The notes: generated from the letters alone by a model not told the origin. Counted from the first letter of the stretch, positions 10,591 through 25,252 are shown. The stretch: DNA of 30,891 nt from PVC group bacterium (GCA_022560555.1 JADFSZ010000003.1:1-30891), one strand, 5' to 3'. Numbers and translations are program-made.

Positions 10591-12498
10591 TCAAGAGCCG
10601 GAATACCCCATGTGGATTTCTTCAATCACCCATTCAATATCGCTGACAAGGAAAGGTTTTTGAAGAACATACAGGGACCGGTCTTTTGTTTCGTCACGTT
10701 CATTCAGCGGGGAATTACGCTTGGTTAACACAATGATCGTCGGCTTGGTTTTGATGTCCTTGGTGAGATTTCGAATGTATTCAGCATTAACAGAATCGGA
10801 GACATCTTCATCAAGGACAATGATTTTATATTTATTGGCACGTGCCATGTCTCTTGCTTCTTCACAAGACGTCGTATGATGGAGATCCACCCCTTTGTCT
10901 TCAAAGACAAGATTCCAAACCCTCAACAAATTGGAATCCGTCATGAGAAGCAAAACGGACCAGTACGCCCAATTTGGGTTCAGCCCCGAGGAGGGATGCG
11001 GATATTCGCTGACATGCGACTTAAACTTTACGAGGGTGTTTTCCTTAATCATAACCGCGCTTTCTAATTCTTTAAGAACTTTCTTAACAACGGCTTCCCC
11101 TCCCGCCTTTTCTGTTTTGGGCAAGAGAACAGCTATGCGGCCATCGGTAAAATTAAAAACACGGTCATACGTGTGCGTCACATGAAACCGCACAATACGT
11201 GTGATAAACTCCATGAAATCCGATAGGATTTCTTTAGAATATTTTCTGGATATTTCGTCCCATCCTTCACAAATAAAATCGATAACGCAAAATTTCCATC
11301 CGGTCTGAATCGATTCTTCTATTCCCTTTGAAAAACAATCATAAAACAAGATCTCCGTTTTTTGCACACGGGGCAAGCGCATAAAAACGGTCGTTCCTCT
11401 CCCTTGATTCGACTCAAGCCAAACCGTACCCCCATGGACTTCCACAAGTTTTTTAGCCATCATCATGCTTAAAGACGATTCTTTAGCGCCCTCGGATGAC
11501 ACAAGAGAAACCTTCTCGACTGTTTCAAATATGTGTTTCAGTTTTTCTTCGGAAATTCCGGGCCCACCATCACGAATCCACAGCACAACAAACCAGCCAT
11601 CGTTTTTTGCTCCCAATTCAACTTGGCCCTTTTCAGGCGTAAATTTAAGAGCATTTCTGAGAAAAGCCATAAAAATCTGTGTCAACCGTTTCATGTCCGC
11701 CGAAATATTCTCGACGTTCCCTTCAACGCGATTGGAGAGAGAGAGACCTTTCTCCTCGGCAATCAGAGTATAAGACCTCACGAGATCATCGAGAAATAGT
11801 TTTGGAGATATGTCTTCATAATACAAAGGGAAGGCTCCCGACTCGATTTTAGAAATAATGAGCAGATCATTAATCGTGGCTGACATACACTCAACATTTC
11901 GGTTAGCACTGTCCAAAAACTTAAGCTGTTCATGAGTAAGTTCTCCCGCGGTTCCGTCTGCAAGGATATTGATATTCTCACGAATAATCGTGAGGGGGGT
12001 ATGCATCTCGTGCGAAATATTTGAAATAAAATCATCTTTAGTCTCATTCAATCTTTTCAGTTCGCCAATCGATTTTTCCATTTCCATATTACGCAGGGTA
12101 AGTGTGTTTTGCAAGTCTCTTAAATTCAGCAAGGCTTTGATACGCTCAATAAATATTTGCATATTCTGGTTTTTGTTAAAAAAATCATCTACACCGGCTC
12201 TATAGGCTTCCAGGACCAGAACGTCTTCCTCGGCACGTGCCGTTAACATGAGAATAGGAATGGTTTTATATTGAGGAATGGAGCGGATTTGTTTGACAAC
12301 CAGAGGCCCGTTCTCTTTAGGCATATAATAGTCAACAACGATACAATCAACACCTTGGTCATCGAGAAGTTTAAGCGCCTCGGACCCGCTATCGGCTTCA
12401 AGCACACCAAATCCCTCTTCTTTCATCCGAAGAGATAAAAGATGCCGGCTATCTTGGTCATCATCAACAATCAATATCGTATGTTTCTTTTTGTTCAT
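10591..12498 (-). CDS. Hybrid sensor kinase: REC-HisKA-HATPase_c-degenerate GGDEF-like-REC
   Basis: ORF 10591..12567. The likely start is ATG 12498 (MNKKKHTILIVDDD), because TTGCGG-17-TATAAT lies at about 12567-12539 within the longer ORF. The H-box is SHEMHTPLT, the N-box is LRNALKFT and G1 is IRDGGPGI. The G2 region is degenerate (KESSLSMMMAKKLVEVHGG). TDGRIAVLLPKTEKAGGEAV occupies the position of GGDEFAVLLP. The C-terminal receiver-like domain has IIVLDEDV, IIVLTK and LQKPF. Confidence 0.78.
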   Translation of the reverse strand: MNKKKHTILIVDDDQDSRHLLSLRMKEEGFGVLEADSGSEALKLLDDQGVDCIVVDYYMPKENGPLVVKQIRSIPQYKTIPILMLTARAEEDVLVLEAYRAGVDDFFNKNQNMQIFIERIKALLNLRDLQNTLTLRNMEMEKSIGELKRLNETKDDFISNISHEMHTPLTIIRENINILADGTAGELTHEQLKFLDSANRNVECMSATINDLLIISKIESGAFPLYYEDISPKLFLDDLVRSYTLIAEEKGLSLSNRVEGNVENISADMKRLTQIFMAFLRNALKFTPEKGQVELGAKNDGWFVVLWIRDGGPGISEEKLKHIFETVEKVSLVSSEGAKESSLSMMMAKKLVEVHGGTVWLESNQGRGTTVFMRLPRVQKTEILFYDCFSKGIEESIQTGWKFCVIDFICEGWDEISRKYSKEILSDFMEFITRIVRFHVTHTYDRVFNFTDGRIAVLLPKTEKAGGEAVVKKVLKELESAVMIKENTLVKFKSHVSEYPHPSSGLNPNWAYWSVLLLMTDSNLLRVWNLVFEDKGVDLHHTTSCEEARDMARANKYKIIVLDEDVSDSVNAEYIRNLTKDIKTKPTIIVLTKRNSPLNERDETKDRSLYVLQKPFLVSDIEWVIEEIHMGYSGS

Positions 12499-12605
12499 AA
12501 GAAAATCGATTTTCCCATTGAATAACCCCGTCGAAAACATTATACTATTCGAGTGAATATCCCGCAATACATGTTGACAAAAATATGCCGGCCTCTCAAG
12601 GCAAA

Positions 12606-13792: not shown

Positions 13793-14239
13793 CTAACGAA
13801 TTTTTGCGGAAATGGGCATAAGAATCGTTCCGTTTTGATAGCTTGGACCGCCAACCACCACGATTCCGCCATTAGCAAGTTGAAGAATCATATTAAGTTT
13901 GTACTTGGAAGCTTTTTCCATCCAGATCTTAACCTTTATCATGCTTCCGTCATAAGATTCCGGCTGAATATACATTTTCCCGCCATTAGGAATAGAAATT
14001 TGACTGATATCTTTAAAACCAACCGAGAATTGTTTTCGATCAAGAAGCTCCAAACTGTCAAACGGTAAATCTTGTCCGATAGAATGGATACGCGGATCAC
14101 GCCCCGTGTGGTCATTGGACGCATAAATGATGTCCACATCCAGATGCACTTGCGCGGCCAAAAGAGCGTCCATACAAGCGGCCTCGAGCCCGAGCAATAA
14201 ACAAAATACGAAAAAAAGGTTCCTCAAAACGTTCATCAT
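13793..14239 (-). CDS. Secreted hypothetical protein (signal peptide), third gene of the ECF operon
   Basis: 148 aa. The N-terminal hydrophobic signal is MMNVLRNLFFVFCLLLGLEAA. I recognise no motif. The start abuts or overlaps the stop of the upstream gene. Confidence 0.5.
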   Translation of the reverse strand: MMNVLRNLFFVFCLLLGLEAACMDALLAAQVHLDVDIIYASNDHTGRDPRIHSIGQDLPFDSLELLDRKQFSVGFKDISQISIPNGGKMYIQPESYDGSMIKVKIWMEKASKYKLNMILQLANGGIVVVGGPSYQNGTILMPISAKIR

Positions 14240-14835
14240 ACCCTTCCCGAAAAATCAACATCCCTCAGCGGCTTAACAACAGCTATGTCTCTACTATGAA
14301 AACCAAAAGAATGAATGGGTTTTAGGTTTTTGTCATCTTCTAAGTTTTTATTCATGACAGGATCCGGGTTTTCCTGAAGCCAAATATATGTTAAACCATC
14401 ATCTGTCCCCTTGAAAATCATAACATGATTTGTTCTATTTTCCAAATATTCTACATAACATTCATTTGCTACGTTCACAGAAGCTTTATGTTCAAAAAAA
14501 TTATAGGTCCCCACCACCATGAGACAAAGGACACACATCACAAGACCCGCGCGCCAACTTAAAACCTTTTTTCTGACAAGAGACACGAGACTTTCCTTTT
14601 GCCCTAAATCGGCACGAATGGATTCCCAAAGATACTGTGTCGGACGTTCAGCCATTTCGCGATCAATAGACTCCTTAATCGAAAGACGTACAGACTGAAA
14701 AAAACGGGCTGTTTTATACCGCAAGGGGTTCTCCTCTAGCTCTTTCTCCCCTAGGGATCCCTCAATCGGCGGCATGGTGTCTTCCAAATACCTTTCGAGT
14801 TCACGTCTATCCCATTGTTTTCTTCTAAATTTCAT
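14236..14835 (-). CDS. Putative single-pass membrane anti-sigma factor
   Basis: It lies immediately downstream of, and overlaps, the ECF sigma gene. It has a cytoplasmic N-terminal region, one TM segment (AGLVMCVLCLMVVGTYNFF) and an extracytoplasmic C-terminal domain. The call rests on position and topology only. Confidence 0.5.
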   Translation of the reverse strand: MKFRRKQWDRRELERYLEDTMPPIEGSLGEKELEENPLRYKTARFFQSVRLSIKESIDREMAERPTQYLWESIRADLGQKESLVSLVRKKVLSWRAGLVMCVLCLMVVGTYNFFEHKASVNVANECYVEYLENRTNHVMIFKGTDDGLTYIWLQENPDPVMNKNLEDDKNLKPIHSFGFHSRDIAVVKPLRDVDFSGRV

Positions 14836-15370
14836 AAAAATCATCTCCTAAAACGTTCACAACTTTTCGGCGCGCATAATAAAGGCGGCTCATCACGGTC
14901 CCCATAGAACAGTTGAGAACCTTGGCAATGGAATCATAATCTAGTCCCTGGATCTCCCTCAGGACAAGGATCCGGCTGTGTTTTTTACCAATCTGGGATA
15001 GAGCTTGGTAAAATCTTTCAACAAGTTCTTTATTTTCAATTTGAGATTTTGGGTCAACTTTTGATGCTAGGGGCAATGATTCATCCAAACTCACTTTTTT
15101 TTCCCGGCGGCGTTTTCTATATTGGTCAATGCCCGCGTTGACGGCAACACGATACAACCAGCTTGCCAAGTGAATCCCCGTGTCCATCTTTGGTAGCCGT
15201 TGATAGAGTTTCAGGAAGATATCTTGAGAGATGTCTAAAGCATCCTCTCGACTCCTAAGAACGCCAAACAGCGCGCGATATACCCGATCCTTATGAGCTT
15301 CAACAATCATCCGGAATGCCTCCCTATCCCCCTTTGAGGCACGAAGAAGAAGTTCTTTGTCGTTAAACAC
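14825..15370 (-). CDS. ECF-type RNA polymerase sigma factor (sigma-70 family, group 4)
   Basis: 181 aa with a GTG start and AAGGAG 8 nt upstream. The region 2 pattern is DISQDIFLKLYQRL...WLYRVAVNAGIDQYRKRRR. The region 4 pattern is ILVLREIQGLDYDSIAKVLNCSMGTVMSRLYYARRKV. Confidence 0.88.
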   Translation of the reverse strand: MFNDKELLLRASKGDREAFRMIVEAHKDRVYRALFGVLRSREDALDISQDIFLKLYQRLPKMDTGIHLASWLYRVAVNAGIDQYRKRRREKKVSLDESLPLASKVDPKSQIENKELVERFYQALSQIGKKHSRILVLREIQGLDYDSIAKVLNCSMGTVMSRLYYARRKVVNVLGDDFYEI

Positions 15371-15562: not shown

Positions 15563-15730
15563 TTATTTCTTTTTACGTGAAGCTTTCTTTTTCTTCTTTG
15601 CTTTGGACTTTTTCTTTTTCTTTTGTCCTCCGCGGGCCATTTTCGCTCTTGAGATATCGCCTTGGGAATCCACAAAATACAGATAACCCGGTTCTTTTTT
15701 AATGCCTACTTTAGCCACTTTCTGCGCCAT
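15563..15730 (-). CDS. Small basic protein with a poly-lysine C-terminal tail (55 aa)
   Basis: ORF 15563..15751. The likely start is ATG 15730 (MAQKVAKVGIKKEPGYLYFVDSQGDISRAKMARGG...), preceded by GAAGGGGGG. The C-terminal 21 residues are QKKKKKSKAKKKKKASRKKK. A strong terminator follows. Confidence 0.6.
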   Translation of the reverse strand: MAQKVAKVGIKKEPGYLYFVDSQGDISRAKMARGGQKKKKKSKAKKKKKASRKKK

Positions 15731-15814: not shown

Positions 15815-16159
15815 TTAAAGCTCATTTTGCAAATGAACATAATCATCGATAACAGCCAAATCTTTTTCGGAAATATTCGTAAAAAAAACACCGGTATCAT
15901 AACACTCTAAGGAAGACTCGCGGACACGATCACATCTAACAACAACGCCTTCACACGAAATTTTTGAAGTTTTTTTCCTCGACACAGGTAGCTCTAATTC
16001 TACCATAACTTTTTTCATGTACGTGATGGGCTGATCGACTTGACAATAGATGCCGGATGTGCTGATATTTTTAACATCTGTGATAATCTTTGATGATTGC
16101 CCCGAAAGGTTAATCTTAAAGTCGCCTGATTTACGTTTCTTTTTTCTTCTCTCGGCCAT
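15815..16159 (-). CDS. PilZ domain protein (c-di-GMP receptor)
   Basis: 114 aa. RxxxR lies within RRKKKRK and D/NxSxxG is NISTSG. A purine-only tract of more than 25 nt lies upstream of the ATG. Confidence 0.75.
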   Translation of the reverse strand: MAERRKKKRKSGDFKINLSGQSSKIITDVKNISTSGIYCQVDQPITYMKKVMVELELPVSRKKTSKISCEGVVVRCDRVRESSLECYDTGVFFTNISEKDLAVIDDYVHLQNEL

Positions 16160-16347
16160 TCTTTTCTTTTTCTCTTCTCACCCTCTATTGTTGAATGTGA
16201 ATGTTAACATAGCACCGTCGGAACTGTCAACGACTTTTTAGCTCATTTACGCTGGCCAAAAATGTTAACGGAACCAATATCCAAAAACGATTCACCGGAA
16301 ACATCCTCTTAAAACCCAAATACGGTTTAAAATTATATGACACTTAT

Positions 16348-18204
16348 TTACGAAACTAAATTTTCAACTCCATCCAACGGAGGAACGTTTTCATAGCGCA
16401 GTTGTCTATAAATTTCTTTAGCGCTCTCTAAGAGGCCCTTTTCCTTGTGGGCCCGAGCTAGTTGAAGCAAAATCCATCGCGTAAGCGAAGAATCAGGATG
16501 GATTTTGAGAAATAAATTGTAAACAGAAATGCTTTTATCAAAACGGTTTAGATCAAAGGAGACCTCCCCCATCCTCAAAAGAAGAGTTTTTTTCAAAAAC
16601 GTGTCCTCCTGATCTTGGGCGCCCACCCACGCGAGCTCATAGTGCCGAAGAGCACTCTCGAGCGTTTTCTGGGATTTGTGAATATCTCCACACGCCATGT
16701 GCAATTCTATTTGTTCGCCCCATGTCATAGCCGGATCCTCCAGGAGTGCTTGATACACCTGAAGAGCCCGAGGGGTTTCCCCGCGGAATTGATATATTTG
16801 ACCTAAGGCTTTTTTCACGTCTCCCGGCAAGCTCATAAAAGGGCGCTCTTGGCTATAACGCACAAATTTTTCTATATCTTGCGGCGGAATCGAGGGCAAG
16901 CCTTTATGGAGGATTTCCCCTCCCAAAAGCTTGAGAAGTACCATCGTATCCACCTCGCTATCCCGGATATCTCTTTGCAAGGCCCCCATCACCATCTTCG
17001 CTTGAGAAAAGAGCCTCATATCCGTATAAGCTTCTATGAGCTTACGATATGCACGCCCACGTTCCTCCTCGTCCGTCACGAGCTCATACTCAAGAGAGGC
17101 TTCGATATTCCACAAAGCGAGTAAAGATCGATCCTCTTTTTGCCAAATCCGATTCATCGCTTGAATCACGACCAACGATTGTTCTTGATTCGGGGCTGTC
17201 GAAAGAAATCTCTCAAACATCGTAATCGCCTTCGTCGGCTCACCAAGGGCCGAATAAGCTTGTCCAAGGTAATAGGTAAGTCCTGCAGGATCTGCTTGGT
17301 TTAGCTCGATTTTTGCCAAACACAACTTGATCACATCAGAATATTTCTCACGATTCAGATAAGTTTCGACCAAAAAACCAAATATTTGTTTCAATACAGT
17401 CGCGTTAACATGCTGATTTTTCATGACCTCATAGAGTTTATTCATTTCATCAATGCTCCCCATGAAACAATGATTCTTAGCAATTTGAATGAGGACGTCA
17501 TTCACACGAGGGCTTTTGGGGAATCTATCTATGAGCTCGTAATATGTGTCAATGGCCAATTGATGTTGTCCAAGACGCGTATACCCAAGAGCCAGGCCTC
17601 GTAGTTCAGCCTCAAGACCACCCGAATCCGGAGCATGACTACCTTTAAGATGATGATCGGCCGGAAAAATAATTATCTTTGAATCCTCCCTTTTATAGAA
17701 ACATCCGATCGGATTTAGGATGAGTTGTATAAGGTCTTTTAAAACATAGATGCCCTCGGACAGCTGAATAGGGGTTTTCAAAAAGTCGCTCTCGATCGCG
17801 TCATCGATCATAATATCGAGAGATGTTTTTGTTTTTAAGAGTCCCAAGAACTCTCCTAATGTCGACACATAGGCTTGATAATAAACTTTTTTCTCAAACA
17901 CATCTTGGGCTTTATCCGCGGGATCCAACATATCCCCTTCGGCCCCTAACTCCTCCGGGAGGGAAGGTTCTTTTTTGATTTGGGACGGCTCTTTCTTGGG
18001 TGAATCCGGGACAAGGGAATCCTGGAATTCATAAATCAGAACATTCTGAACTTCCTTTTTTATATTCTTCATTTTTAAATTGAGACGGTCGATGTCTTCC
18101 CTGAGCGTTTGGGCATAAACGTTTTGATGAAAAATTATCAATAGTATTACAAAAAAACTTCGTGAGAAAAAAATTTTGAAACCCGGGTTCATGACATTTT
18201 CCAT
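16348..18204 (-). CDS. Secreted TPR-repeat protein, possibly with an N-terminal STN/secretin-N-like domain
   Basis: 618 aa. The signal peptide is FFVILLIIFHQNVYA-QT. Residues around 100-190 (LGEFLGLLKTKTSLDIMIDD...LKDLIQLILNPIGCFYKREDSKIIIFP) resemble STN-type domains. The remainder consists of repeated TPR-like helical pairs. The alternative start at ATG 18192 forms ATGA with the upstream stop. Confidence 0.75.
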   Translation of the reverse strand: MENVMNPGFKIFFSRSFFVILLIIFHQNVYAQTLREDIDRLNLKMKNIKKEVQNVLIYEFQDSLVPDSPKKEPSQIKKEPSLPEELGAEGDMLDPADKAQDVFEKKVYYQAYVSTLGEFLGLLKTKTSLDIMIDDAIESDFLKTPIQLSEGIYVLKDLIQLILNPIGCFYKREDSKIIIFPADHHLKGSHAPDSGGLEAELRGLALGYTRLGQHQLAIDTYYELIDRFPKSPRVNDVLIQIAKNHCFMGSIDEMNKLYEVMKNQHVNATVLKQIFGFLVETYLNREKYSDVIKLCLAKIELNQADPAGLTYYLGQAYSALGEPTKAITMFERFLSTAPNQEQSLVVIQAMNRIWQKEDRSLLALWNIEASLEYELVTDEEERGRAYRKLIEAYTDMRLFSQAKMVMGALQRDIRDSEVDTMVLLKLLGGEILHKGLPSIPPQDIEKFVRYSQERPFMSLPGDVKKALGQIYQFRGETPRALQVYQALLEDPAMTWGEQIELHMACGDIHKSQKTLESALRHYELAWVGAQDQEDTFLKKTLLLRMGEVSFDLNRFDKSISVYNLFLKIHPDSSLTRWILLQLARAHKEKGLLESAKEIYRQLRYENVPPLDGVENLVS

Positions 18205-18572
18205 AAAAGATGTTTTTCAATATGCCCAACACCGGAGGAAAATTTTTGGATCCCGTCTTCAAGGGAAGCAACTATCTCGATCATTTGAGATAGACCGCAA
18301 ATCCGAAAAACATTGTGAAGTTTTTCCTGGACTCGAATCATTTTAATATCCCCACCGCTCTTTCGAAAAACCTCCGACAAACGCAAAATCACCTTCATTC
18401 CTTTCGTGGACATACCTTCGAGATCTTCGCAATCTAAAATCACACAATACTTACCTTCCTTTTGCAATTGGCCAAGAAAGGTTTCAAGTTCCTGACACTC
18501 CCCTAAAACCACGTCCCCTTTGAGCGTGACAACCATGAGGTGATTTATTTTCTTTTTCTTAATGTTAAACAT
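18189..18572 (-). CDS. STAS domain protein (anti-sigma-factor-antagonist-like), second copy
   Basis: ORF 18189..18593. The start is ATG 18572 (MFNIKKKKINHLMVVTLKGDV), with GGAGAG 5 nt upstream, and it overlaps the upstream stop by 8 nt. It has STAS topology, with GMSTKGMKVIL at the position of DSSGLG. Confidence 0.72.
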   Translation of the reverse strand: MFNIKKKKINHLMVVTLKGDVVLGECQELETFLGQLQKEGKYCVILDCEDLEGMSTKGMKVILRLSEVFRKSGGDIKMIRVQEKLHNVFRICGLSQMIEIVASLEDGIQKFSSGVGHIEKHLLWKMS

Positions 18573-20040
18573 GGACTCTCCGGCTCCAAACAAATGTCAT
18601 CCTTGAAGCGTTGTTCTTCCTATTTTCTATCTGCCAACGATCCGCGAGTTGATCCCACAGAGGCCGCGCGGGATGTTCTATTGACTCGCTCTCTGAGATA
18701 CAGAAATTTCGGCACTCAAACACACATGTCCTATGTTTGGAGCCGGATGACCAGACAAGTGTCACAGAGGAGTCTTTCGAACAACGATCCAAAAGAAAAA
18801 GATAGGCCTCCACACACACAGTTTTGATCAGATAAAAATCCTCCTCGCTTCCAACGGATTCATCTTCCGAAATAAGCTGCAAATATTCTTGTAGATTTTT
18901 AATGTTCTCTTCCGGGTTCACGAAGTTTAAATCTAAGTTATGAGTCGTTTCCTTTGAATCAAGCTGAAGAAAAAGACATTCATAATCGCCCTCAAGGACA
19001 TGGGACACATCCCGAACGTTTTGCCGGGATGAATTCTCTGTTTTACTAAGAACCATTTTACATTTTTTCAGGTATGCGTTTTTGTCAGAGCCTCCCATCG
19101 GCTCCTTGGTCATCACAAGCCCTTCCAATAGAGAGAAACCGAGTTCCTTTTCAACGAATTTCATGGACTCTGAGAGACCGATCAATCCGGATGTCACAGG
19201 AAAATCCAAAAGATCATTCTTTCCGATTCCGATAACAAAATCCCATCCCGCGTTCGCATACGTTATTTTGTTTTTGAGGGGATCCCAAGTGAAAATGAAC
19301 ATGGCCGAGACATCCATGCCGTTCTTCAAAAGCACATCATTCATTTTCGTTAAAATAGGACTTGGGGCAAGACCATCTCGCACGTATTCGCGACACATAT
19401 TCCATACAAGATGTTCATGAAATCCTTTTTGTATTCCTTTTGTTTTTGAACTCATGGCAAAAAACCCATATCGCCCTTTATCGAGTCTCTCACAATGATA
19501 CATCAAGTTTTTATGATCCTGAGAGGATATCTTCACACGCGCTTGGGCCTGCTCTTGACGTCTTAGATTTACTTGAGAAATATATTGAATCATTCCATCT
19601 CTCTCATTAGCTTTAGCTCTCAGATCAGAATTCTCCTTTTCTAAAAATTTAATCTTTTTATATACGTTTGATTTTTTCTGAATATCCTGAACAGCCGTAT
19701 GGATCTCCTCTAAATCATACGGTTTGTTGATAAACGAGTGGACATGTTTTCGGATAGCTTTTTTCGCCAGGTCAAAATCTGATTGTGCCGTTGTAATTAT
19801 GACTTCGATCTCCGGATATTTCTGCTTGGCAAGATCCAAAAGTTCTATCCCCTCTTCTTGATCCGCCAAATTGATGTCCGTAATCAAGACATCCCACGTA
19901 CGCTTGTCCAAGAAACTTACACCATCTTCAAAAGTATGGGCGACCTGCACAACGCATCCCATTTCCTCGCATGAATCTTTGAGAGCCCATGCGAGAACTT
20001 TTTCATCATCAACAACAAGAACGTTTAATGGGGCATCCAT
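18565..20040 (-). CDS. Response-regulator fusion: REC - coiled coil - degenerate PP2C/SpoIIE-like domain - degenerate RsbW-like HATPase domain
   Basis: ORF 18565..20115 begins with TTG. The likely start is ATG 20040 (MDAPLNVLVVDDEK), with AAGGA 8 nt upstream. The REC domain has DVLITDINL and INKPYD. The middle region aligns by eye with the PP2C of ORF 22588..23973 (AMFIFTWDPLKNKITYANAGW versus FVTLFYGCLDLKKRKLHYTNAGH), but the metal-binding Asp motifs are replaced: GRYGFF for GGDYFD, AMSSKTKG for ADVSSKG, and VMTKEP for YTDGVV. The C-terminus is laid out like RsbW (VCVEAYLFLLDR) but lacks the N-box Asn and the G-boxes. Confidence 0.68.
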   Translation of the reverse strand: MDAPLNVLVVDDEKVLAWALKDSCEEMGCVVQVAHTFEDGVSFLDKRTWDVLITDINLADQEEGIELLDLAKQKYPEIEVIITTAQSDFDLAKKAIRKHVHSFINKPYDLEEIHTAVQDIQKKSNVYKKIKFLEKENSDLRAKANERDGMIQYISQVNLRRQEQAQARVKISSQDHKNLMYHCERLDKGRYGFFAMSSKTKGIQKGFHEHLVWNMCREYVRDGLAPSPILTKMNDVLLKNGMDVSAMFIFTWDPLKNKITYANAGWDFVIGIGKNDLLDFPVTSGLIGLSESMKFVEKELGFSLLEGLVMTKEPMGGSDKNAYLKKCKMVLSKTENSSRQNVRDVSHVLEGDYECLFLQLDSKETTHNLDLNFVNPEENIKNLQEYLQLISEDESVGSEEDFYLIKTVCVEAYLFLLDRCSKDSSVTLVWSSGSKHRTCVFECRNFCISESESIEHPARPLWDQLADRWQIENRKNNASRMTFVWSRRVHV

Positions 20041-20213
20041 ACATGATCCTTTTGAACCCGTCCTTTGAAAAACCGCTGACGGTAATACCCTGGTTAAGCC
20101 AAGTTCAGTACCCAAAGATTTTTTCTGAGAAAACCATTACGGGATTTTTGCGCGTTTTGTGTTGGTCTCACTTGCATGATCAAGATCCTTACTAGGGACA
20201 TCCATAATAATTG

Positions 20214-20229
20214 TGCAAGGTACATGCCA
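20214..20229 (-). promoter_or_regulatory. Sigma-54 (-24/-12) promoter: TGGCATGTACCTTGCA on the minus strand
   Basis: The minus strand from 20229 to 20214 reads TGGCAT-GTACC-TTGCA, against the consensus TGGCAC-N5-TTGCW. The GG-N10-GC spacing is exact. It lies 108 bp downstream of the NtrC-family gene stop and faces the REC-PP2C-like operon. The predicted TSS is near 20203. A perfect 16-bp AT palindrome, TTATTTATATAAATAA, lies at 20247-20262. Confidence 0.7.
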
Positions 20230-20336
20230 AATCAAATTTACATTTTTTATTTATATAAATAACTTGGATTACTGTGTTTATGGATATTTTAGTCTCAACG
20301 GCGGGGGCTCTCACAACAGATGCCTAAGTACAATTA

Positions 20337-21722
20337 CTATACATTTTTTTCTAAATTGTACTTATCAATTTTATTATATAGGGTCGTTCGATTGATACTA
20401 AGAATCTTAGCGGATTTATTCCGATTCCACTTTGTATCCCTTAGCACACGTTGAATATGGCGTTTTTCAATCTCATCCAGGCTTAAATCTTCAAGTTGCT
20501 CTTCTTGACTTTGGTTGTCCATTCGGGCCCCTTCGGCAATGATTTCGGGCTGTCTTTGCAGCATCAAATTGTCCAAAGAAAGAAACGCATCTTCACCCAA
20601 TATCATCGCCCGTTCAATAACGTTCTTCAATTCACGCACATTTCCCGGCCAAGCATAAAAAAGAAGTCTTTGTTTTGCTTCGTCGGTCAGGCCTATAAAA
20701 TTGGATTTAAATTCTTTATTGAATTCTTTAATGAAGAATTTAGCCATATCGAGGATATCCTCTTTATGTTCTCTTAATGGAGCCACATAAATAGGCATCA
20801 CTTTTAGGCGATAATACAAATCCTCCCGGAACGTTCCGTCTTTTACGGCCTCTTCAAGATTTTTATTGGTTGCGGCAATAATACGAATATCAACAAAAAT
20901 ATCTTTTATTCCTCCCACACGGCGAAAGGATTTCTCCTCAATAGCGTGCAAAAGCTTCGACTGCATGCCCGGGGTCATATCCCCGATTTCATCCAAAAAC
21001 AAGGTTCCCCCATCGGCCAATTCGAACAATCCCTCCTTGGTCTTTTTCGCATCCGTAAAGGCGCCTTTTTCATGTCCAAACAACTCGCTTTCGAGAAGGG
21101 CTTCCGGCAAAGCCGTGCCATTAACTTCAACAAAGGGTTTATCTGCCCGGCCGGACGCATAATGGATGACTCGCGCAACCAAACTTTTTCCTGTGCCGCT
21201 ATCGCCCTGAATGAGCACCGTCGAGGCTTTACTCTCGGCCACTTTTGCAACAAGCCGATTGAGGTCTTGAATCACGGAACTTTCTCCGATAATGCTCGTC
21301 AGCTTATATTTACGCCGTTCACCCTGGCGAATGTGCCCTATCTCCTTTTTGAGAGTTCGTGTCTCGAGAGCTTTAGCAATATTGATGAGAAGTTCTTCGA
21401 TATTAAACGGCTTATTAATGTAATCGTAAGCTCCCAACTTCATGGCTTGAACGGCGGAGTCGATATCAGCATATCCCGTGATCATCATGACAATCGCCTC
21501 CGGATCATATTGGATAATGGTTTTTAAAAGATCCATCCCGTTTAGGTCCGGCAGCTTCATGTCGAGAAGTATAAGATCCGGGTTTTTCTGACTGATACAA
21601 TCCAGGATATCAATTTCTCCGTCCGAAAGAATGACATCATAACCGGCTAGGGTCAGAGCCTCGTTGAGCGCGAAACGAATGGACTTTTCATCATCTATAA
21701 CGAGAATGGATTGCTTTGACAT
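20337..21722 (-). CDS. Sigma-54-dependent response regulator (NtrC family enhancer-binding protein)
   Basis: ORF 20337..21737 begins with GTG. The likely start is ATG 21722 (MSKQSILVIDDEK), with GGAG 9 nt upstream. The REC domain has LILLDMKLPDLNG. The AAA+ domain has Walker A GDSGTGKS, a GAFTGA-type loop reading GAFTDA, Walker B TLFLDEIG and FREDLYYRL. The C-terminal Fis-type HTH is KSAKILSINRTTLYNKI. Confidence 0.92.
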   Translation of the reverse strand: MSKQSILVIDDEKSIRFALNEALTLAGYDVILSDGEIDILDCISQKNPDLILLDMKLPDLNGMDLLKTIIQYDPEAIVMMITGYADIDSAVQAMKLGAYDYINKPFNIEELLINIAKALETRTLKKEIGHIRQGERRKYKLTSIIGESSVIQDLNRLVAKVAESKASTVLIQGDSGTGKSLVARVIHYASGRADKPFVEVNGTALPEALLESELFGHEKGAFTDAKKTKEGLFELADGGTLFLDEIGDMTPGMQSKLLHAIEEKSFRRVGGIKDIFVDIRIIAATNKNLEEAVKDGTFREDLYYRLKVMPIYVAPLREHKEDILDMAKFFIKEFNKEFKSNFIGLTDEAKQRLLFYAWPGNVRELKNVIERAMILGEDAFLSLDNLMLQRQPEIIAEGARMDNQSQEEQLEDLSLDEIEKRHIQRVLRDTKWNRNKSAKILSINRTTLYNKIDKYNLEKNV

Positions 21723-21761
21723 GGCGGATATCTCCACATGGTGGTTAACAAAAATAAAATT

Positions 21762-22097
21762 TTAGGTAAAACTTTCCAGAGCTTCGTCTTCCGTTGAAAA
21801 TATTGCAAACACTTTCGTCAGCTGACTAATTTCAAAGAGCTCACGAACATACTTTTGGAGATTACAAAATCTCAATTCTCCGTCTTCCTCTCTGATCATT
21901 TTTAATCCTGAAACCAGAATGCCCAGTCCCGAGCTATTAATGAAATCAACATCAGCTAAATTTATCAAAATTTTCTTCCGCTTATCCATTAAAGCCTGAT
22001 TCAGACACTCTTTGAGGCTTAAAGATGAATTAATATCGAGTTTACCCGACAAATCAACTATAGTCACATCACTCACTTTTCTAGTTTTGATGTCCAC
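21762..22097 (-). CDS. Anti-sigma-factor antagonist (STAS; RsbV/SpoIIAA type)
   Basis: 111 aa. It carries the canonical motif DFINSSGLGILV with the phosphorylatable Ser. It overlaps the upstream kinase gene by 17 nt. Confidence 0.88.
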   Translation of the reverse strand: MDIKTRKVSDVTIVDLSGKLDINSSLSLKECLNQALMDKRKKILINLADVDFINSSGLGILVSGLKMIREEDGELRFCNLQKYVRELFEISQLTKVFAIFSTEDEALESFT

Positions 22098-22518
22098 AGA
22101 CGCTTCCCTCCTTATCTAAATATTTAATCAAAGATACACACGTTCCTGAATTTTTTATTCGACGAAACTTGAGTTGATCTAAATAGCTTCTCATAATAAA
22201 AATCCCTCGCCCTGTTTCCATCCCAACATTATTTTCATCTATAACACCATGACGCTTAGGGTCATATCTAAAATCATTCTTTCCCTCATCCGTCACATCA
22301 ATTTGAAGTTGATGGGGCTTTATATCCACATTCACAATGATTGTTCCATCTTGATTTTCTTTGTTTCCGTGAATGATCGCGTTTGTGACAGCTTCACTCA
22401 CGGCAATAGAAAGCCTGATTTTTTGTTGAGGGTCAAATTTCAGCAAAACGCTTAATTCATTCACAAAGCTATGAACCACGTCCAAATAATTAAGCGAACT
22501 TTTAAAAGTTAATTTCAT
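22081..22518 (-). CDS. RsbW/SpoIIAB-type serine kinase / anti-sigma factor (HATPase_c_2)
   Basis: 145 aa. The N-box is SEAVTNAIIHG, followed by DVTDEG and TGRGIFIMRSY. Size and order are typical of partner-switching kinases. Confidence 0.85.
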   Translation of the reverse strand: MKLTFKSSLNYLDVVHSFVNELSVLLKFDPQQKIRLSIAVSEAVTNAIIHGNKENQDGTIIVNVDIKPHQLQIDVTDEGKNDFRYDPKRHGVIDENNVGMETGRGIFIMRSYLDQLKFRRIKNSGTCVSLIKYLDKEGSVCGHQN

Positions 22519-22587
22519 TTTTTAGTGTGCCAAGGTTTGTTCCAAGTGAGTTTCAAACAACCGTATTTTTACACTCTTTAGAATCCA

Positions 22588-23973
22588 TTAAGCAATAAGA
22601 CGTATGGCCACCATCGCAATATCATCATACTGCTCTAAATCACCGCTAAAAGCAACCAGTTCCTTGAACAGCCCATCAATTAAATTTTTGGAACTTTCTT
22701 CTAAATGTTCGCGAATATATTCACAAAGACGGAATTCTCCGAATAAATCTCCTTGAGGCGAAAGAGATTCAACGACACCATCTGTGTAAAAAAACAGTAA
22801 GTCTCCGTCCAAGAGATCCACGGTTTCTTCCTCGTACTCGGCATCATCGAGAATTCCCAAAAAAAGCCCTCCGGCTTTCAAACGCATCGGCTCACGGAGG
22901 TCTTTTCTAAAGATGAGAGGATAACAATGTCCGGCGTTTGTATAATGTAATTTTCTCTTTTTAAGATCCAAACACCCGTAAAACAATGTTACGAACATGT
23001 CGGTATCTCTGTTGATATCCGAACACACAAGCTGATTGGATCGGGTAATAATGTTCTTAGGCGAAGATTCTCGACTTATGTTTCCCCTTAAAATGGCGCG
23101 TGTCGCGGTCATAACAAGCGCCGCGGGAACACCTTTACTGGAGACATCCGCGACAATGACATGGAGGAGCCCGGAATCAGTAAGGAGATCGAAATAATCC
23201 CCGCCGACTTCTTTCGTGGCTGAATATTTGGTCGCGATGTCAAGGCCGGGAATCTGCGGCGGTTTTTGCGGCAAAAGCCCCAATTGTATGTCCCGGCCCA
23301 ACTGCAGTTCCTGCTCGTATTTTTGCTTCACAAGAGACTCATTGTGCAACAATGCATTATCTATGGCAACAGCGGCAAACCCGGCTACGGCCTTAATGAT
23401 TCTTTTGGCAAATTCGTCAATCTCATCAATGCGTTTAGAGTTGACGATGTTCAGTATGCCCACGGCTCGATCCCGTGTCAAAAGAGGGATACATAACACA
23501 GATTCAATAGTATGATCGCCCTCCTTGCACTCCAGATCCGGATGTTCACGCGGATTTGAATACATCAACAGTTGTTGGGTCAACAAGGCTTCATCGCAAA
23601 TAGACAATCCGCTTTTTTTAATTTTTATCGATCGAATAATTTTATCTTCAAGACTCCAGGAAATTCTTGTTACAAGACGGCCTTCTTCAAGAAGCATGAT
23701 AGAGCCGACTTCCGCGTCGGTCATTTTTAAAGGGAAATAAATGAGGTGGAATAAAATGCGCTCAAGATCGAAGCTGGAGTTGACAAGCTGTCCCGCCTCC
23801 TCTAAATCATCAAGATCTTTAACGCGCTGTTCTAATTTTACGCGGGTTTGGGCAAGAAGCGTTCTCAAATTCCGGTTTTCACTTTTCAAATCTTCCGAAG
23901 AGGGCAACTCGCTCGAAGAATCTTTATCACGCATATGATTTACCCCGGTCTGAAAGGCTTTGGCCCCAAGCAT
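22588..23973 (-). CDS. GAF domain-containing PP2C (SpoIIE/RsbU-type) serine phosphatase
   Basis: 461 aa. It has an N-terminal coiled coil and a GAF-like region. The PP2C motifs are intact: GGDYFDLL, VADVSSKGVPAALVM, YTNAGH, FFYTDGVVES and YDDIAMVAIRL. The alternative start is ATG 23934. Confidence 0.88.
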   Translation of the reverse strand: MLGAKAFQTGVNHMRDKDSSSELPSSEDLKSENRNLRTLLAQTRVKLEQRVKDLDDLEEAGQLVNSSFDLERILFHLIYFPLKMTDAEVGSIMLLEEGRLVTRISWSLEDKIIRSIKIKKSGLSICDEALLTQQLLMYSNPREHPDLECKEGDHTIESVLCIPLLTRDRAVGILNIVNSKRIDEIDEFAKRIIKAVAGFAAVAIDNALLHNESLVKQKYEQELQLGRDIQLGLLPQKPPQIPGLDIATKYSATKEVGGDYFDLLTDSGLLHVIVADVSSKGVPAALVMTATRAILRGNISRESSPKNIITRSNQLVCSDINRDTDMFVTLFYGCLDLKKRKLHYTNAGHCYPLIFRKDLREPMRLKAGGLFLGILDDAEYEEETVDLLDGDLLFFYTDGVVESLSPQGDLFGEFRLCEYIREHLEESSKNLIDGLFKELVAFSGDLEQYDDIAMVAIRLIA

Positions 23974-24006
23974 ACCGACCTTTCTTGCCTCAAAATCGAC
24001 ATGTTT

Positions 24007-24459
24007 TTATGTAGTTTTTTCTTGATCCTTTTTATTAAAATACTTATCGAATGCTTCTCCTAATTCCGTTAGTGTCGTGATAAAAACTTTAATATCTCCG
24101 CCCGGAATGAGTTTTTTGACATTTTCCATCGTTTCCTCATCCATATCATCAGCGACAGCAACCGTAATGACATTCCCAATTTTATCCACAGGCAAAACAC
24201 CCAATCCCCGGCATATATCCTCGGTAAATATATCCAAAAGTCCTTGGTCGATATCGTAACATCCCAAAGGAAGATAGGCGTGCCCGCCCTGCTCCATGAG
24301 ATGGTCCGCAACCTGCTCTTCCGTGACAAACCCTAGCTCAACAAGAATCTTTCCTAAAAAGCCCCCTTGCTTTTTCTGAACTTCGAGGGCTTTTTCTAAT
24401 TGCTCATTAGTAAGAAGCCCGTCGGCTATGAGAAGTTCTCCGATTCTCTTTTTGGCCAT
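24007..24459 (-). CDS. Stand-alone MshEN / T2SSE_N domain protein (predicted c-di-GMP receptor)
   Basis: 150 aa. RIGELLIADGLLTNEQLEKALEVQ fits the published 24-residue MshEN motif RLGxx(L/V/I)(L/V/I)xxG(L/V/I)(L/V/I)xxxxLxxxLxxQ at every fixed position apart from Ile at the Leu of RLG. After a 5-residue spacer (KKQGG) comes a second copy, FLGKILVELGFVTEEQVADHLMEQ. No ATPase domain follows. Confidence 0.8.
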   Translation of the reverse strand: MAKKRIGELLIADGLLTNEQLEKALEVQKKQGGFLGKILVELGFVTEEQVADHLMEQGGHAYLPLGCYDIDQGLLDIFTEDICRGLGVLPVDKIGNVITVAVADDMDEETMENVKKLIPGGDIKVFITTLTELGEAFDKYFNKKDQEKTT

Positions 24460-24579: not shown

Positions 24580-25200
24580 TTAGTTGACCGCGGCGGGAAT
24601 AAAAACGACGGTAGTGAATGTTTTTTCCTTTTCAAGCCCTTTGGCTTCGGTTGTAACACTTACTTTCACGGCCTTCGGCAAAGGGATCACTCCGTCGGGC
24701 CAATTTTTATCCGTATTGCTCCAGGTTGTTCCATCATCCGTCCACTCAAAATTGAGTTTACTAAATGCATATCCCGCTTCTGCCGCTTCGTTCAAAGTTG
24801 TATCCCAAGTCGCGTCCGGTTCATCCGTTGAGTTTATGACACGATATATCACTGATCCGCTCAATTGGTAATAAACTTCTGAAACGCCCCATCCGATGGA
24901 ACCACTATCAAAAATAATCAAACTCAAGGTATCACTATCGGTGGAGTCATTAAATTGCATCGCATTGGCCAGGTCACCATTTTTATAATTTATGGTAGCG
25001 ATCAAATCTTTTTCAACCAACTGCAAGAAAACACGCGCATTCTGAAGGGCTTCTGTCTGTGTTTCGCCCCGTGTCCAGAAATCCGTTGAAGCGTTAAAAA
25101 TCACGTACACCACCCCAAAAACAAGCGTTAAAATAACGGCCGCCACCAAAACCTCAATAATCGTAAACCCTTTTTTGGACCGTTTTATTTTATTCACCAT
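24580..25200 (-). CDS. Type IV pilin-like / T2SS pseudopilin (prepilin N-terminal methylation motif; GspJ/PulJ-like)
   Basis: ORF 24580..25218. The likely start is ATG 25200 (MVNKIKRSKKGFTIIEVLVAAVIL), with GGAG 8 nt upstream. It has the classic G/FTxxE prepilin peptidase site followed by a hydrophobic helix. Confidence 0.8.
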   Translation of the reverse strand: MVNKIKRSKKGFTIIEVLVAAVILTLVFGVVYVIFNASTDFWTRGETQTEALQNARVFLQLVEKDLIATINYKNGDLANAMQFNDSTDSDTLSLIIFDSGSIGWGVSEVYYQLSGSVIYRVINSTDEPDATWDTTLNEAAEAGYAFSKLNFEWTDDGTTWSNTDKNWPDGVIPLPKAVKVSVTTEAKGLEKEKTFTTVVFIPAAVN

Positions 25201-25252
25201 TCTTAGTTCTCCACTCACCGTTTCACTCTTTCATAATAGTTTTTTGCTTCTT

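What the first reader, a model, noticed from the sequence alone, without database searches (positions are those of the whole stretch)
15815..24459. Sigma-less partner-switching module with a sigma-54 activator in the sigma-factor slot, feeding a second degenerate partner-switch operon
The minus-strand gene order starts with a stand-alone MshEN protein. Next come a GAF-PP2C phosphatase with all catalytic Asp motifs, an RsbW-type kinase, and an RsbV-type STAS protein with a 17-nt overlap. Canonical modules (rsbV-rsbW-sigB, spoIIAA-spoIIAB-sigF) place the target sigma factor next. Here that slot holds an NtrC-family enhancer-binding protein. 108 bp past its stop lies a near-consensus sigma-54 promoter. 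It faces a second operon encoding a REC-pseudoPP2C-pseudoHATPase fusion, a second STAS protein and a secreted TPR protein. A PilZ protein follows after a 188-bp gap, so its co-transcription is uncertain. No sigma-70-family gene lies in these 8.6 kb. This suggests a two-tier circuit in which a c-di-GMP-informed partner switch is read out through sigma-54-dependent transcription rather than by releasing an alternative sigma factor. Sigma-less Rsb modules exist, for example in Chlamydia. I cannot match this composite order to a described system. Its novelty is my inference.
Basis: partly seen in the sequence, partly recalled or inferred. Interest (0 to 1): 0.8.

Follow-up and report, generated by a model that had tools for sequence, protein, structure and literature searches.

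The report
Partner-switch genes joined to sigma-54 regulator
In an uncultured PVC-group bacterium, a complete partner-switch signalling trio sits in one operon with a sigma-54 activator whose conserved promoter drives a catalytically dead copy of a second partner-switch; this is a new arrangement of known parts, not a new kind of system.

Summary
All nine minus-strand genes have the stated domains, overlaps and gaps, and the -24/-12 element sits 108 bp after the activator's stop codon.

The "activator in the sigma slot" reading does not hold. Comparison shows that two separate conserved blocks have been joined.

- **Block B** is the activator, the sigma-54 promoter and the operon it faces (REC-pseudoPP2C-degenerate kinase, tailed STAS, TPR). 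It recurs in two metagenomic loci, L093 and L094, whose activators are 54% identical and share a distinctive DNA-binding helix. There a histidine kinase precedes the activator, the promoter lies in the same place, and the kinase domain is intact.
- **Block A** is the GAF-PP2C, RsbW and RsbV trio. It recurs at 32-40% identity beside flagellar and chemotaxis genes. No sigma factor follows it in any locus. A histidine kinase plus sigma-54 activator follows it in three of about eight lineages.

Only in this window does RsbV abut the activator with no kinase between them. The activator keeps a canonical receiver domain, so an unlinked kinase probably still controls it.

The most likely circuit: the phosphorylated activator switches on the degenerate second module. 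The intact trio may supply kinase and phosphatase activity in trans; that step is inferred.

The closest precedents are V. fischeri SypG/SypE/SypA, Pseudomonas HsbR/HsbA and RssB/RssC. I rate it a new variant of a known kind, of moderate interest.

The parts
24007..24459 (-). Stand-alone MshEN-domain protein (150 aa) with two tandem c-di-GMP-binding motifs; first gene of transcription unit 1.
   Evidence: PF05157 at 42.8 bits. NF053729 'c-di-GMP_motif' at 68.4 bits against a cut-off of 38. The sequence RIGELLIADGLLTNEQLEKALEVQ fits RLGxxLLxxGLLxxxxLxxxLxxQ (read; the motif itself is from my own knowledge of MshEN).
22588..23973 (-). GAF-PP2C (SpoIIE/RsbU-type) serine phosphatase, 461 aa, with its catalytic acidic residues intact.
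   Evidence: SpoIIE 169 bits and GAF_2 45 bits. D259, D262, D276, D398, D450 and D451 are invariant in alignment A1. More than 5000 homologues exist; the closest outside this species is 40% identical.
22081..22518 (-). RsbW/SpoIIAB-type anti-sigma serine kinase, 145 aa. The N-box and G2 box are intact; the G1 box reads DEGKN instead of DxGxG.
   Evidence: HATPase_c_2 80 bits. NCBIfam spIIAB 66 bits and RsbW 61 bits, both below the equivalog cut-offs. Alignment A2.
21762..22097 (-). RsbV/SpoIIAA-type STAS protein (111 aa) with the FINSSGLG phospho-serine motif; overlaps the kinase gene by 17 nt.
   Evidence: STAS 80 bits. TIGR00377 at 86.5 bits against a cut-off of 53. It is 43-47% identical to the STAS proteins of related trios.
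20337..21737 (-). NtrC/AtoC-family sigma-54 enhancer-binding protein (REC, AAA+, HTH_8). It starts 24 nt after the STAS stop and has canonical receiver residues and a GAFTDA loop.
   Evidence: Sigma54_activat 229 bits, Response_reg 93 bits, HTH_8 49 bits. It is 54% identical to P0204 and P0211 and shares the HTH 'AKIL[SK]INRTTLY[NS]KI' only with them.
20325..20364 (-). Perfect 11-nt inverted repeat (TAAGTACAATT, 18 nt, AATTGTACTTA) straddling the activator's stop codon, 96-135 bp upstream of the -24 element. It could be an activator-binding site or an RNA hairpin; this is unresolved.
   Evidence: The RNA fold is -9.3 kcal/mol, z -1.7. L093 has an inverted repeat of similar geometry but different sequence; L094 has none.
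20214..20229 (-). Sigma-54 (-24/-12) promoter TGGCAT-N5-TTGCA, 108 bp after the activator's stop and about 175 nt upstream of ATG 20040.
   Evidence: It is the only match with one mismatch or fewer in the window. The position is conserved: TGGCACAAAAGTTGCT in L093 and TGGCATAAAAGTTGCT in L094, each directly after the orthologous activator gene.
18565..20040 (-). Response regulator of 491 aa: canonical REC, a long helical linker, a pseudo-PP2C (three of four acidic motifs lost) and a degenerate RsbW-like C-terminal domain (Mg-binding Asn, G1 and G2 lost). It is a decayed member of the HsbR/CrsR architecture.
   Evidence: REC 76 bits and SpoIIE 20.6 bits, sub-threshold. An exhaustive search found only a 98% twin plus three weak PP2C hits. 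Alignments A3 and A4. 27% identity over residues 6-300 to the REC-SpoIIE-HATPase_c_2 protein of L094. The C-terminal model matches anti-sigma kinases best.
18189..18572 (-). Second STAS protein (127 aa) with an atypical MSTKG site and a family-specific C-terminal tail, FSSxxVGxIEKxLLW. Its start overlaps the stop of the preceding gene.
   Evidence: STAS 51 bits. It is 27-30% identical to the STAS proteins of L093 and L094 (E 1e-15 to 1e-17), which share the tail.
16348..18204 (-). TPR protein (618 aa) with a signal-peptide-like N terminus. It overlaps the STAS stop by 16 nt and is the last gene of transcription unit 2.
   Evidence: Multiple TPR families. Weak similarity to PorW, YbgF and BamD. 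Weak similarity to the TPR of L093 (25% over 180 aa, E 6e-4), which lies in the same position.
15815..16159 (-). PilZ c-di-GMP receptor (114 aa) with RxxxR and NxSxxG motifs. It is probably a separate unit.
   Evidence: PilZ 38 bits. A sigma-70-like TTGACA-18-TAACAT with an extended TG lies at 16230-16201, and a strong terminator at 15540-15511. There is no PilZ in L093 or L094.

Best explanation
The locus joins two regulatory blocks that are each conserved elsewhere.

**Block B (21737-16348).** It contains an NtrC-type activator, a -24/-12 promoter directly behind the activator gene, and the operon that promoter drives. The operon encodes an HsbR-like response regulator, a tailed STAS protein and a secreted TPR protein. 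Once its receiver is phosphorylated by a histidine kinase, the activator opens the sigma-54 promoter and switches the operon on.

In other organisms that kinase is encoded just upstream of the activator. Here it is missing, so an unlinked kinase must serve. The hybrid kinase at 12567-10591 is one candidate.

**Block A (24459-21762).** It encodes an MshEN c-di-GMP receptor and an intact partner-switch trio: a GAF-PP2C phosphatase, an RsbW kinase and an RsbV STAS protein. It has taken the kinase's place and is probably co-transcribed with the activator.

**Likely working.** In this lineage the response regulator of block B has lost its phosphatase and kinase catalytic residues. It probably works as a phosphorylation-controlled binding scaffold, as RssB does, with its STAS partner.

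I infer, without evidence beyond co-location, that the intact RsbW and GAF-PP2C of block A set the phosphorylation state of one or both STAS proteins in trans.

**Shown:** domain content, motif decay, positional conservation of the promoter, and orthology of both blocks.

**Inferred:** that the activator acts on this promoter, the identity of the kinase, the trans-acting kinase and phosphatase, and the output. Secreted TPR here and LysM plus BamD-like partners in relatives point to an envelope or surface-related output.
For: **Block B is conserved**
- L093 and L094 carry HK, EBP, sigma-54 promoter, LysM lipoprotein, REC-SpoIIE-HATPase_c_2, STAS and two TPR genes.
- Their activators are 54% identical to the window's and uniquely share its HTH.
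- Their STAS proteins share the EKxLLW tail.
- Their promoters lie in the same place.

**Block A is conserved**
- PP2C-RsbW-STAS trios at 32-40% (PP2C) and 34-47% (STAS) identity occur in about eight lineages.
- None has a sigma gene following it.

**Unit structure**
- Gene spacing in unit 1 is 33 nt, 69 nt, a 17-nt overlap and 24 nt.
- The three genes of unit 2 overlap one another.

**Protein features**
- Receiver residues (DD, D, T, K) are intact in both REC proteins (sequence).
- Catalytic decay is shown.
- The C-terminal domain has an anti-sigma-kinase fold.

**Precedents**
- SypG (a sigma-54 activator) drives the locus that encodes SypA and SypE (PMC4517449).
- REC-PP2C-kinase plus STAS in HsbR/HsbA (PMC6482189).
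- REC-pseudoPPM adaptor RssB and RssB/RssC (PMC12143880).
Against: - No transcript data exist, and the presence of rpoN in this genome could not be checked.
- Window-wide, one promoter match is not more than chance (expected 0.38); the case rests on position and conservation.
- Block B is known from only two other loci, both from one metagenome sample. Two metagenome scans found no more.
- No activator-binding motif shared by the three loci was found.
- The C-terminal domain has no significant sequence match to HATPase_c_2, and the fold-search E-values are marginal (none at or below 1e-3).
- The RsbW G1 box is atypical (DEGKN), so its kinase activity is not assured.
- The phospho-acceptor position of the second STAS family is ambiguous: Cys in L093 and L094, Thr here.
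- The trans-complementation step has no direct support.
Confidence: 0.6

Rival explanations
1. The activator is the direct target of the partner switch. RsbW binds and holds the activator, as an anti-sigma factor holds sigma, and unphosphorylated RsbV releases it. Partner-switch state, informed by c-di-GMP through MshEN, is therefore read out as sigma-54-dependent transcription without any histidine kinase.
For: - RsbV is followed after 24 nt by the activator, with no kinase gene between them.
- The orthologous activators in L093 and L094 have a kinase in exactly that place, so the trio has positionally replaced the kinase.
- An HK-EBP pair follows this trio subfamily in 3 of about 8 lineages, against 0 of 80 generic PP2C loci.
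Against: - The activator keeps a fully canonical receiver (DD, D, T, K), which argues for Asp phosphorylation.
- In the related trio loci a kinase, and often another gene, lies between RsbV and the activator, and those activators are only 40-46% identical to this one.
- No report of an RsbW-type protein binding an enhancer-binding protein was found.
- The genome probably has other kinases; a hybrid kinase lies 8 kb away.
Confidence: 0.12
2. The juxtaposition has no shared pathway. The trio controls an unlinked target, such as a sigma-28/FlgM-type or other sigma factor. This would fit its relatives, which sit in flagellar and chemotaxis clusters. It merely shares a transcript with the activator after a rearrangement that removed the kinase gene.
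For: - The closest trios lie next to fliS-fliD-flaG, motAB-flgBC-fliEF or cheR-cheZ-cheA.
- Partner switches in Gram-negative bacteria commonly act on unlinked targets, for example HsbA on FlgM and HsbD (PMC6482189).
- Block B exists without any trio in L093 and L094.
Against: - Tight operon spacing with the activator implies co-expression.
- The catalytically dead second module sits next to an intact kinase-phosphatase pair.
- The trio recurs with sigma-54 two-component pairs in other lineages.
- There are no flagellar genes in the 30.9-kb window.
Confidence: 0.25

Closest known systems
Vibrio fischeri syp regulators: SypG (sigma-54-dependent response regulator), SypE (kinase-REC-PP2C) and SypA (STAS)
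   Same: - A receiver-containing sigma-54 activator turns on a locus that itself encodes a REC-containing partner-switch protein and its STAS partner.
- No sigma factor is the known output.
- The system is linked to surface or biofilm functions (PMC4517449; PMC8256260).
   Different: - SypE has the domain order kinase-REC-phosphatase and is catalytically active. Here the order is REC-PP2C-kinase and both catalytic sites have decayed.
- syp has no second, stand-alone PP2C-RsbW-RsbV trio in the activator's operon.
- SypG is fed by known hybrid kinases. Here no kinase is adjacent.
HsbR/HsbA (Pseudomonas) and CrsR/CrsA (Shewanella)
   Same: - The same architecture: REC, PP2C and an RsbW-like kinase/anti-sigma domain, with an adjacent STAS gene.
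- A link to c-di-GMP signalling, since HsbA binds the diguanylate cyclase HsbD (PMC6482189).
   Different: - HsbR and CrsR are active enzymes that bind RpoS. The window protein lacks three of four PP2C acidic motifs and the ATP-binding motifs.
- hsbA is transcribed from RpoS- and FliA-type promoters, not a sigma-54 promoter (bioRxiv 10.1101/2024.11.25.625174).
- Beyond the REC domain, sequence similarity to PP2C and kinase proteins in general is marginal.
- The STAS protein here carries an extra conserved tail.
RssB (E. coli adaptor) and RssB/RssC (P. aeruginosa)
   Same: - A receiver domain joined by a helical linker to a PPM/PP2C-type domain.
- In E. coli that domain is inactive and serves protein binding.
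- In P. aeruginosa the gene is paired with an rsbV-like STAS gene, rssC (PMC12143880).
   Different: - RssB has no C-terminal kinase-like domain.
- Its known role is delivering RpoS to ClpXP, which cannot be inferred here.
- The NCBIfam RssB match covers only the receiver and linker.
Canonical RsbU-RsbV-RsbW-SigB and SpoIIAA-SpoIIAB-SigF modules
   Same: The trio has the same three protein families, a phosphorylatable STAS serine, and overlapping kinase and STAS genes.
   Different: - The gene order is phosphatase-kinase-STAS, not STAS-kinase-sigma.
- No sigma gene follows the trio here or in any related locus examined.
- The scores fall below the NCBIfam equivalog cut-offs for RsbW, SpoIIAB and SpoIIAA.

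Membership tests
Partner-switching module (PP2C phosphatase / GHKL Ser kinase / STAS) | All three protein families are encoded together. | tested here: met
   SpoIIE 169 bits, HATPase_c_2 80 bits and STAS 80 bits in adjacent genes.
Partner-switching module (PP2C phosphatase / GHKL Ser kinase / STAS) | The STAS protein has a phosphorylatable Ser in the D/N-S-S/T-G motif, and the phosphatase has its metal-binding Asp residues. | tested here: met
   FINSSGLG in the 111-aa STAS protein. D259, D276, D398 and D450/451 are invariant positions in A1.
Partner-switching module (PP2C phosphatase / GHKL Ser kinase / STAS) | The kinase has intact N, G1 and G2 ATP-binding boxes. | tested here: inconclusive
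   N-box E42/N46 and G2 GRG are present. G1 reads DEGKN where five homologues have DxGxG.
Partner-switching module (PP2C phosphatase / GHKL Ser kinase / STAS) | The kinase binds and releases a sigma factor or another defined target. | not testable with these tools
   No sigma gene is adjacent. The ECF sigma at 15370-14825 has its own putative membrane anti-sigma factor and lies beyond a terminator.
Bacterial enhancer-binding protein (NtrC family) with its sigma-54 promoter | REC, AAA+ Sigma54_activat with a GAFTGA-type loop, and a Fis-type HTH. | tested here: met
   229, 93 and 49 bits. The loop reads GAFTDA, as in all seven aligned homologues.
Bacterial enhancer-binding protein (NtrC family) with its sigma-54 promoter | A -24 GG / -12 GC promoter with correct spacing upstream of a target operon. 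| tested here: met
   TGGCAT-N5-TTGCA at 20229-20214. An equivalent element follows the orthologous activator in L093 and L094.
Bacterial enhancer-binding protein (NtrC family) with its sigma-54 promoter | rpoN is present in the genome, and transcription depends on the activator. | not testable with these tools
   Only this 30.9-kb contig of the MAG is available, and there are no expression data.
Bacterial enhancer-binding protein (NtrC family) with its sigma-54 promoter | A cognate histidine kinase is encoded next to the activator. | tested here: not met
   The gene upstream is RsbV, 24 nt away. L093, L094 and 80 further loci have a kinase there.
HsbR/CrsR-type response regulator (REC-PP2C-RsbW-like kinase) with adjacent STAS | Domain order REC, PP2C, GHKL kinase, with a STAS gene next door. 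| tested here: met
   - REC scores 76 bits.
- The PP2C match is sub-threshold but aligns to PP2C proteins.
- The C-terminal fold matches anti-sigma kinases best.
- Positional orthologues score for SpoIIE and HATPase_c_2.
- The STAS gene overlaps the stop codon.
HsbR/CrsR-type response regulator (REC-PP2C-RsbW-like kinase) with adjacent STAS | Catalytically competent phosphatase and kinase domains. | tested here: not met
   GGD, DxSGKG and TDG motifs are lost. No HATPase_c_2 signal at E<=10. In the structural register the Mg-binding Asn, G1 and G2 are substituted.
MshEN and PilZ c-di-GMP receptors | Sequence motifs known to bind c-di-GMP. | tested here: met
   NF053729 at 68.4 bits. PilZ at 38 bits with RRKKKR (RxxxR) and NISTSG (sequence). 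Binding itself was not tested.

The most novel reading that the evidence does not exclude
In this lineage a serine-phosphorylation partner switch (GAF-PP2C, RsbW, RsbV, possibly gated by c-di-GMP through MshEN) has functionally replaced the histidine kinase as the controller of a sigma-54 enhancer-binding protein. RsbW or RsbV would act directly on the activator or its receiver. That would be a previously undescribed way of regulating sigma-54 transcription, and a new class of partner-switch output.
Probability: 0.1. Interest if true: 0.8.

Novelty: new variant of a known kind. Interest (0 to 1): 0.5.

Why it matters
Partner switches outside the Firmicutes often have no known output, and how they connect to other signalling systems is an open question. 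This locus offers three testable leads.

- **A natural experiment.** The kinase gene of a sigma-54 two-component unit has been replaced by a partner-switch trio.
- **A small new family.** It is a sigma-54-driven HsbR-like/STAS/TPR operon whose phosphatase domain is already dead. In this lineage the kinase domain is dead as well. This suggests enzymes evolving into pure binding scaffolds, as happened with RssB.
- **A recurrent association.** One GAF-PP2C/RsbW/RsbV subfamily is repeatedly found next to flagellar or chemotaxis genes and sigma-54 two-component pairs in several uncultured phyla.

If the trio does act on the activator or on the second STAS protein, that would be a new wiring between Ser/Thr and His-Asp signalling. 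If it does not, the locus is an ordinary mosaic of known regulators.

Tried and rejected
**Sequence evidence for the C-terminal domain as HATPase_c_2.** All attempts were negative:
- Pfam at E<=10;
- hhalign against two RsbW profiles;
- PDB sequence search.

Only synteny and a moderate-confidence fold match support the assignment.

**Full-length AlphaFold model.** The model of the 491-aa protein had pLDDT 41 and was unusable.

**Genome scan with a PP2C alignment.** I used it only as a background set.

**Metagenome scans.**
- The STAS-tail alignment found nothing.
- The activator-HTH alignment returned 80 HK-EBP loci. None had the HsbR-like operon or an upstream trio, and many were HK-EBP-Peptidase_M54 triads.

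**Shared activator-binding motif.** A search upstream of the three promoters found only k-mers that encode the conserved HTH.

**The inverted repeat as a terminator.** It has no U-tract and modest stability, so I left it unresolved.

**Riboswitch in the roughly 175-nt leader.** There was no Rfam hit.

**The ECF sigma at 15370-14825 as the RsbW target.** I rejected this because:
- it has its own overlapping putative membrane anti-sigma gene;
- it lies beyond a strong terminator.

**P0208 (52% identical activator).** Its context is a generic HK-EBP-REC arrangement, so it is not an orthologous locus.

Full report
**Source.** The window is the whole of a 30,891-bp contig from an NCBI metagenome-assembled genome labelled 'PVC group bacterium'. 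Several of its proteins match entries MCH7504085-104 exactly. The lineage is poorly sampled. Apart from contigs about 97-98% identical to it, the nearest relatives of its proteins are 40-54% identical.

**Checking the observation.**
- The MshEN protein carries two tandem copies of the c-di-GMP-binding motif (NF053729, 68 bits).
- The GAF-PP2C protein keeps all the acidic residues that are invariant across 35 homologues.
- The RsbW-like kinase has an intact N-box and G2 box. Its G1 box reads DEGKN where five homologues have DxGxG.
- The first STAS protein has the NSSG phospho-serine motif and overlaps the kinase gene by 17 nt.
- The activator has REC, AAA+ and HTH_8 domains and all the receiver residues.
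- The promoter-like element TGGCATGTACCTTGCA lies at 20229-20214, 108 bp after the activator's stop.
- PilZ follows after 188 nt.

I make two corrections. First, the next gene starts at ATG 20040, which has an AGGA ribosome-binding site, giving a 491-aa protein. Second, an ECF sigma gene lies just outside the stated bounds at 15370-14825. It has its own overlapping putative membrane anti-sigma gene and sits beyond a strong terminator at 15540-15511.

**Is the promoter real?** Counted across the window it is not significant: one match against 0.38 expected. Its position and conservation are what count. The two loci that carry the closest homologues of the activator (L093 and L094, 54% identity) each have a -24/-12 element directly after the activator gene and on the same strand. 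L093 has TGGCACAAAAGTTGCT 144 bp after the stop, and L094 has TGGCATAAAAGTTGCT 54 bp after it.

**The second operon and the activator form a conserved unit, block B.**
- L093 and L094 read: small HisKA-HATPase kinase; activator; sigma-54 promoter; LysM lipoprotein; REC-SpoIIE-HATPase_c_2 protein (528 aa); STAS (129-130 aa); small TPR; large TPR with BamD/YfiO-like matches.
- The window's 491-aa protein aligns to the L094 protein over residues 6-300 (27% identity, E 3e-21).
- Its STAS partner is 27-30% identical to theirs and shares a distinctive C-terminal tail, FSSxxVGxIEKxLLW.
- The three activators share an HTH sequence, AKIL[SK]INRTTLY[NS]KI[DR]KY. Five other activators of 52-53% identity lack it.

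The activator therefore belongs with the downstream operon, and in its orthologues it is preceded by a histidine kinase.

**Degeneracy of the second module.**
- An exhaustive HMMER search with the non-REC part found only a 98% twin and three weak hits, all to SpoIIE/PP2C proteins.
- Alignment shows GGD replaced by NLM, DVSxKG by AMSSKTKG and TDG by TKE. One Asp of the final DD pair remains.
- The L093 and L094 proteins have also lost the first, second and fourth acidic motifs, although they still score for SpoIIE. The dead phosphatase therefore appears ancestral to this small family.
- Their kinase domains are intact (N-box, DSGDG, GRG).
- The window's C-terminal 147 residues give no sequence signal for HATPase_c_2.
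- A single-sequence AlphaFold model of that segment (pLDDT 56.5, pTM 0.56, core 65-87) has the strand-helix-helix-strand-strand-helix order. I recall that order from SpoIIAB-type kinases.
- The model's eight best Foldseek matches in the PDB are all anti-sigma Ser kinases: UsfX and SpoIIAB, TM 0.40-0.59 (TM up to 0.59), E 6e-3 to 0.13.

The support is indirect.

**The trio is a second conserved unit, block A.**
- The closest homologues of the GAF-PP2C protein (32-40% identity) are almost always followed by an RsbW-like and a STAS gene. In L003, L004 and L090 these two are fused into one 266-aa protein.
- What comes next varies. In L001 it is REC, a hypothetical gene, PAS-kinase and activator. 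In L002 it is a hypothetical gene, kinase and activator.
- In L003, L004, L089 and L090 it is REC, PAS-kinase and activator, followed by motAB, flgBC and fliEF.
- In a Zixibacteria group it is a HEAT-repeat protein, REC genes and cheR-cheZ-cheA.
- In L088 and L091 fliS-fliD-flaG and an HDOD gene lie upstream and a HEAT-repeat protein downstream.
- In L092 the PP2C stands alone.
- No sigma-70-family gene follows the STAS gene in any of these loci.
- A co-directional kinase-activator pair within 3 kb occurs in 3 of about 8 lineages, against 0 of 80 generic PP2C loci from a genome scan. If the lineages are independent, the hypergeometric probability is 5e-4.
- The activators in these loci are only 40-46% identical to the window's, so they are not its orthologues.

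**Synthesis.** The window joins block A to block B at the point where block B normally has its kinase. There is no 'sigma slot' in this trio subfamily, and the activator was not recruited into one.

The junction still deserves attention, for four reasons:
- the 24-nt spacing implies co-transcription;
- this trio subfamily repeatedly keeps company with sigma-54 two-component pairs;
- the module downstream has lost both enzymatic activities, while an intact kinase and phosphatase are encoded just upstream;
- no other example of RsbV directly abutting an activator was found in about 170 loci examined.

**Most likely working.** The activator, phosphorylated by an unlinked kinase, activates the conserved sigma-54 promoter. 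Its product is a receiver-controlled, catalytically dead scaffold with its STAS partner and a secreted TPR protein. That the upstream RsbW and GAF-PP2C act in trans on the STAS proteins is my inference. c-di-GMP input is suggested only by the co-operonic MshEN gene, the nearby PilZ gene and an FHA-GAF-HD-GYP gene at 8647-10236. PilZ has its own sigma-70-like promoter and is probably a separate unit.

**Comparison with known systems.**
- The nearest precedent for the second tier is the V. fischeri syp locus. There the sigma-54 activator SypG drives genes that include the STAS protein SypA and the REC-containing kinase-phosphatase SypE (PMC4517449; PMC8256260).
- The architecture of the 491-aa protein is that of HsbR and CrsR (PMC6482189), but hsbA is not sigma-54-dependent.
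- The receiver plus dead-PPM idea has a precedent in E. coli RssB, and the pairing of a REC-PPM gene with an rsbV-like gene in P. aeruginosa RssB/RssC (PMC12143880).
- Full-text searches combining partner-switch, STAS and sigma-54 activator terms returned no description of this composite. The library holds open-access papers only.

**Verdict.** The locus is a new variant of known kinds of system. The most novel reading still open, direct control of a sigma-54 activator by a partner switch in place of a histidine kinase, I put at about 10%.

Noticed in passing
window 13793-15370 (-): An ECF sigma factor (Sigma70_r2 plus r4_2) lies here. It is followed by a 202-aa protein that overlaps it by 20 nt and has one hydrophobic segment, likely its anti-sigma factor. 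A 148-aa secreted-looking protein comes next. The group lies 445 bp past PilZ and beyond a strong terminator.
   Followed up: partly
window 15563-15730 (-): An unannotated 55-aa ORF with a strong GGAAGGGGGG ribosome-binding site and a lysine-rich tail (MAQKVAKVGIKKEPGYLYFVDSQGDISRAKMARGG followed by a K-rich stretch). It lies between PilZ and the terminator at 15540-15511. It has no Pfam match.
   Followed up: partly
window 8647-10236 (+): An FHA-GAF-HD_5 (HD-GYP-type) protein, a candidate c-di-GMP phosphodiesterase. It adds to the c-di-GMP theme of the neighbourhood (MshEN, PilZ).
   Followed up: no
window 10591-12567 (-): A hybrid kinase with REC, HisKA, HATPase_c and a weak C-terminal REC-like region (24 bits, sub-threshold). 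It is the only histidine kinase in the window and a candidate phosphodonor for the two orphan receiver proteins.
   Followed up: partly
window 20325-20364; L093 8401-8443: Perfect inverted repeats of similar geometry (11-13-nt arms, 17-18-nt spacer) but unrelated sequence sit at the end of the activator gene in the window and in L093. L094 has none. I could not decide between a binding site and an RNA hairpin.
   Followed up: partly
L003 9350-10150, L004 9224-10024, L090 6655-7455: In one lineage the RsbW-like kinase and its STAS substrate are called as a single 266-aa fusion protein. The sister locus L089 has them as two genes.
   Followed up: no
L002, L088, L091 (gene directly upstream of the GAF-PP2C): An HDOD-domain protein precedes the trio in three lineages, in the position held by the MshEN protein in the window. 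This suggests interchangeable accessory input proteins.
   Followed up: no
L100, L101, L105, L106, L108, L114, L117, L120, L127: A recurrent kinase / sigma-54 activator / Peptidase_M54 (archaemetzincin-like, about 180 aa) three-gene arrangement in JGI metagenome contigs. It turned up through similarity to the activator's HTH. The Pfam match was checked in five of these loci.
   Followed up: partly
window 24580-25218 (-): A 212-aa protein with an N-terminal methylation (type IV pilin-like) motif lies directly upstream of the MshEN gene. The 30.9-kb window contains no flagellar genes, unlike the relatives of the trio.
   Followed up: no
window 22081-22518 (-): NCBI annotates the RsbW-like gene as 127 aa (MCH7504102.1), which implies a later start. 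The 145-aa form is the one found in 12 of the 15 listed cluster members.
   Followed up: no
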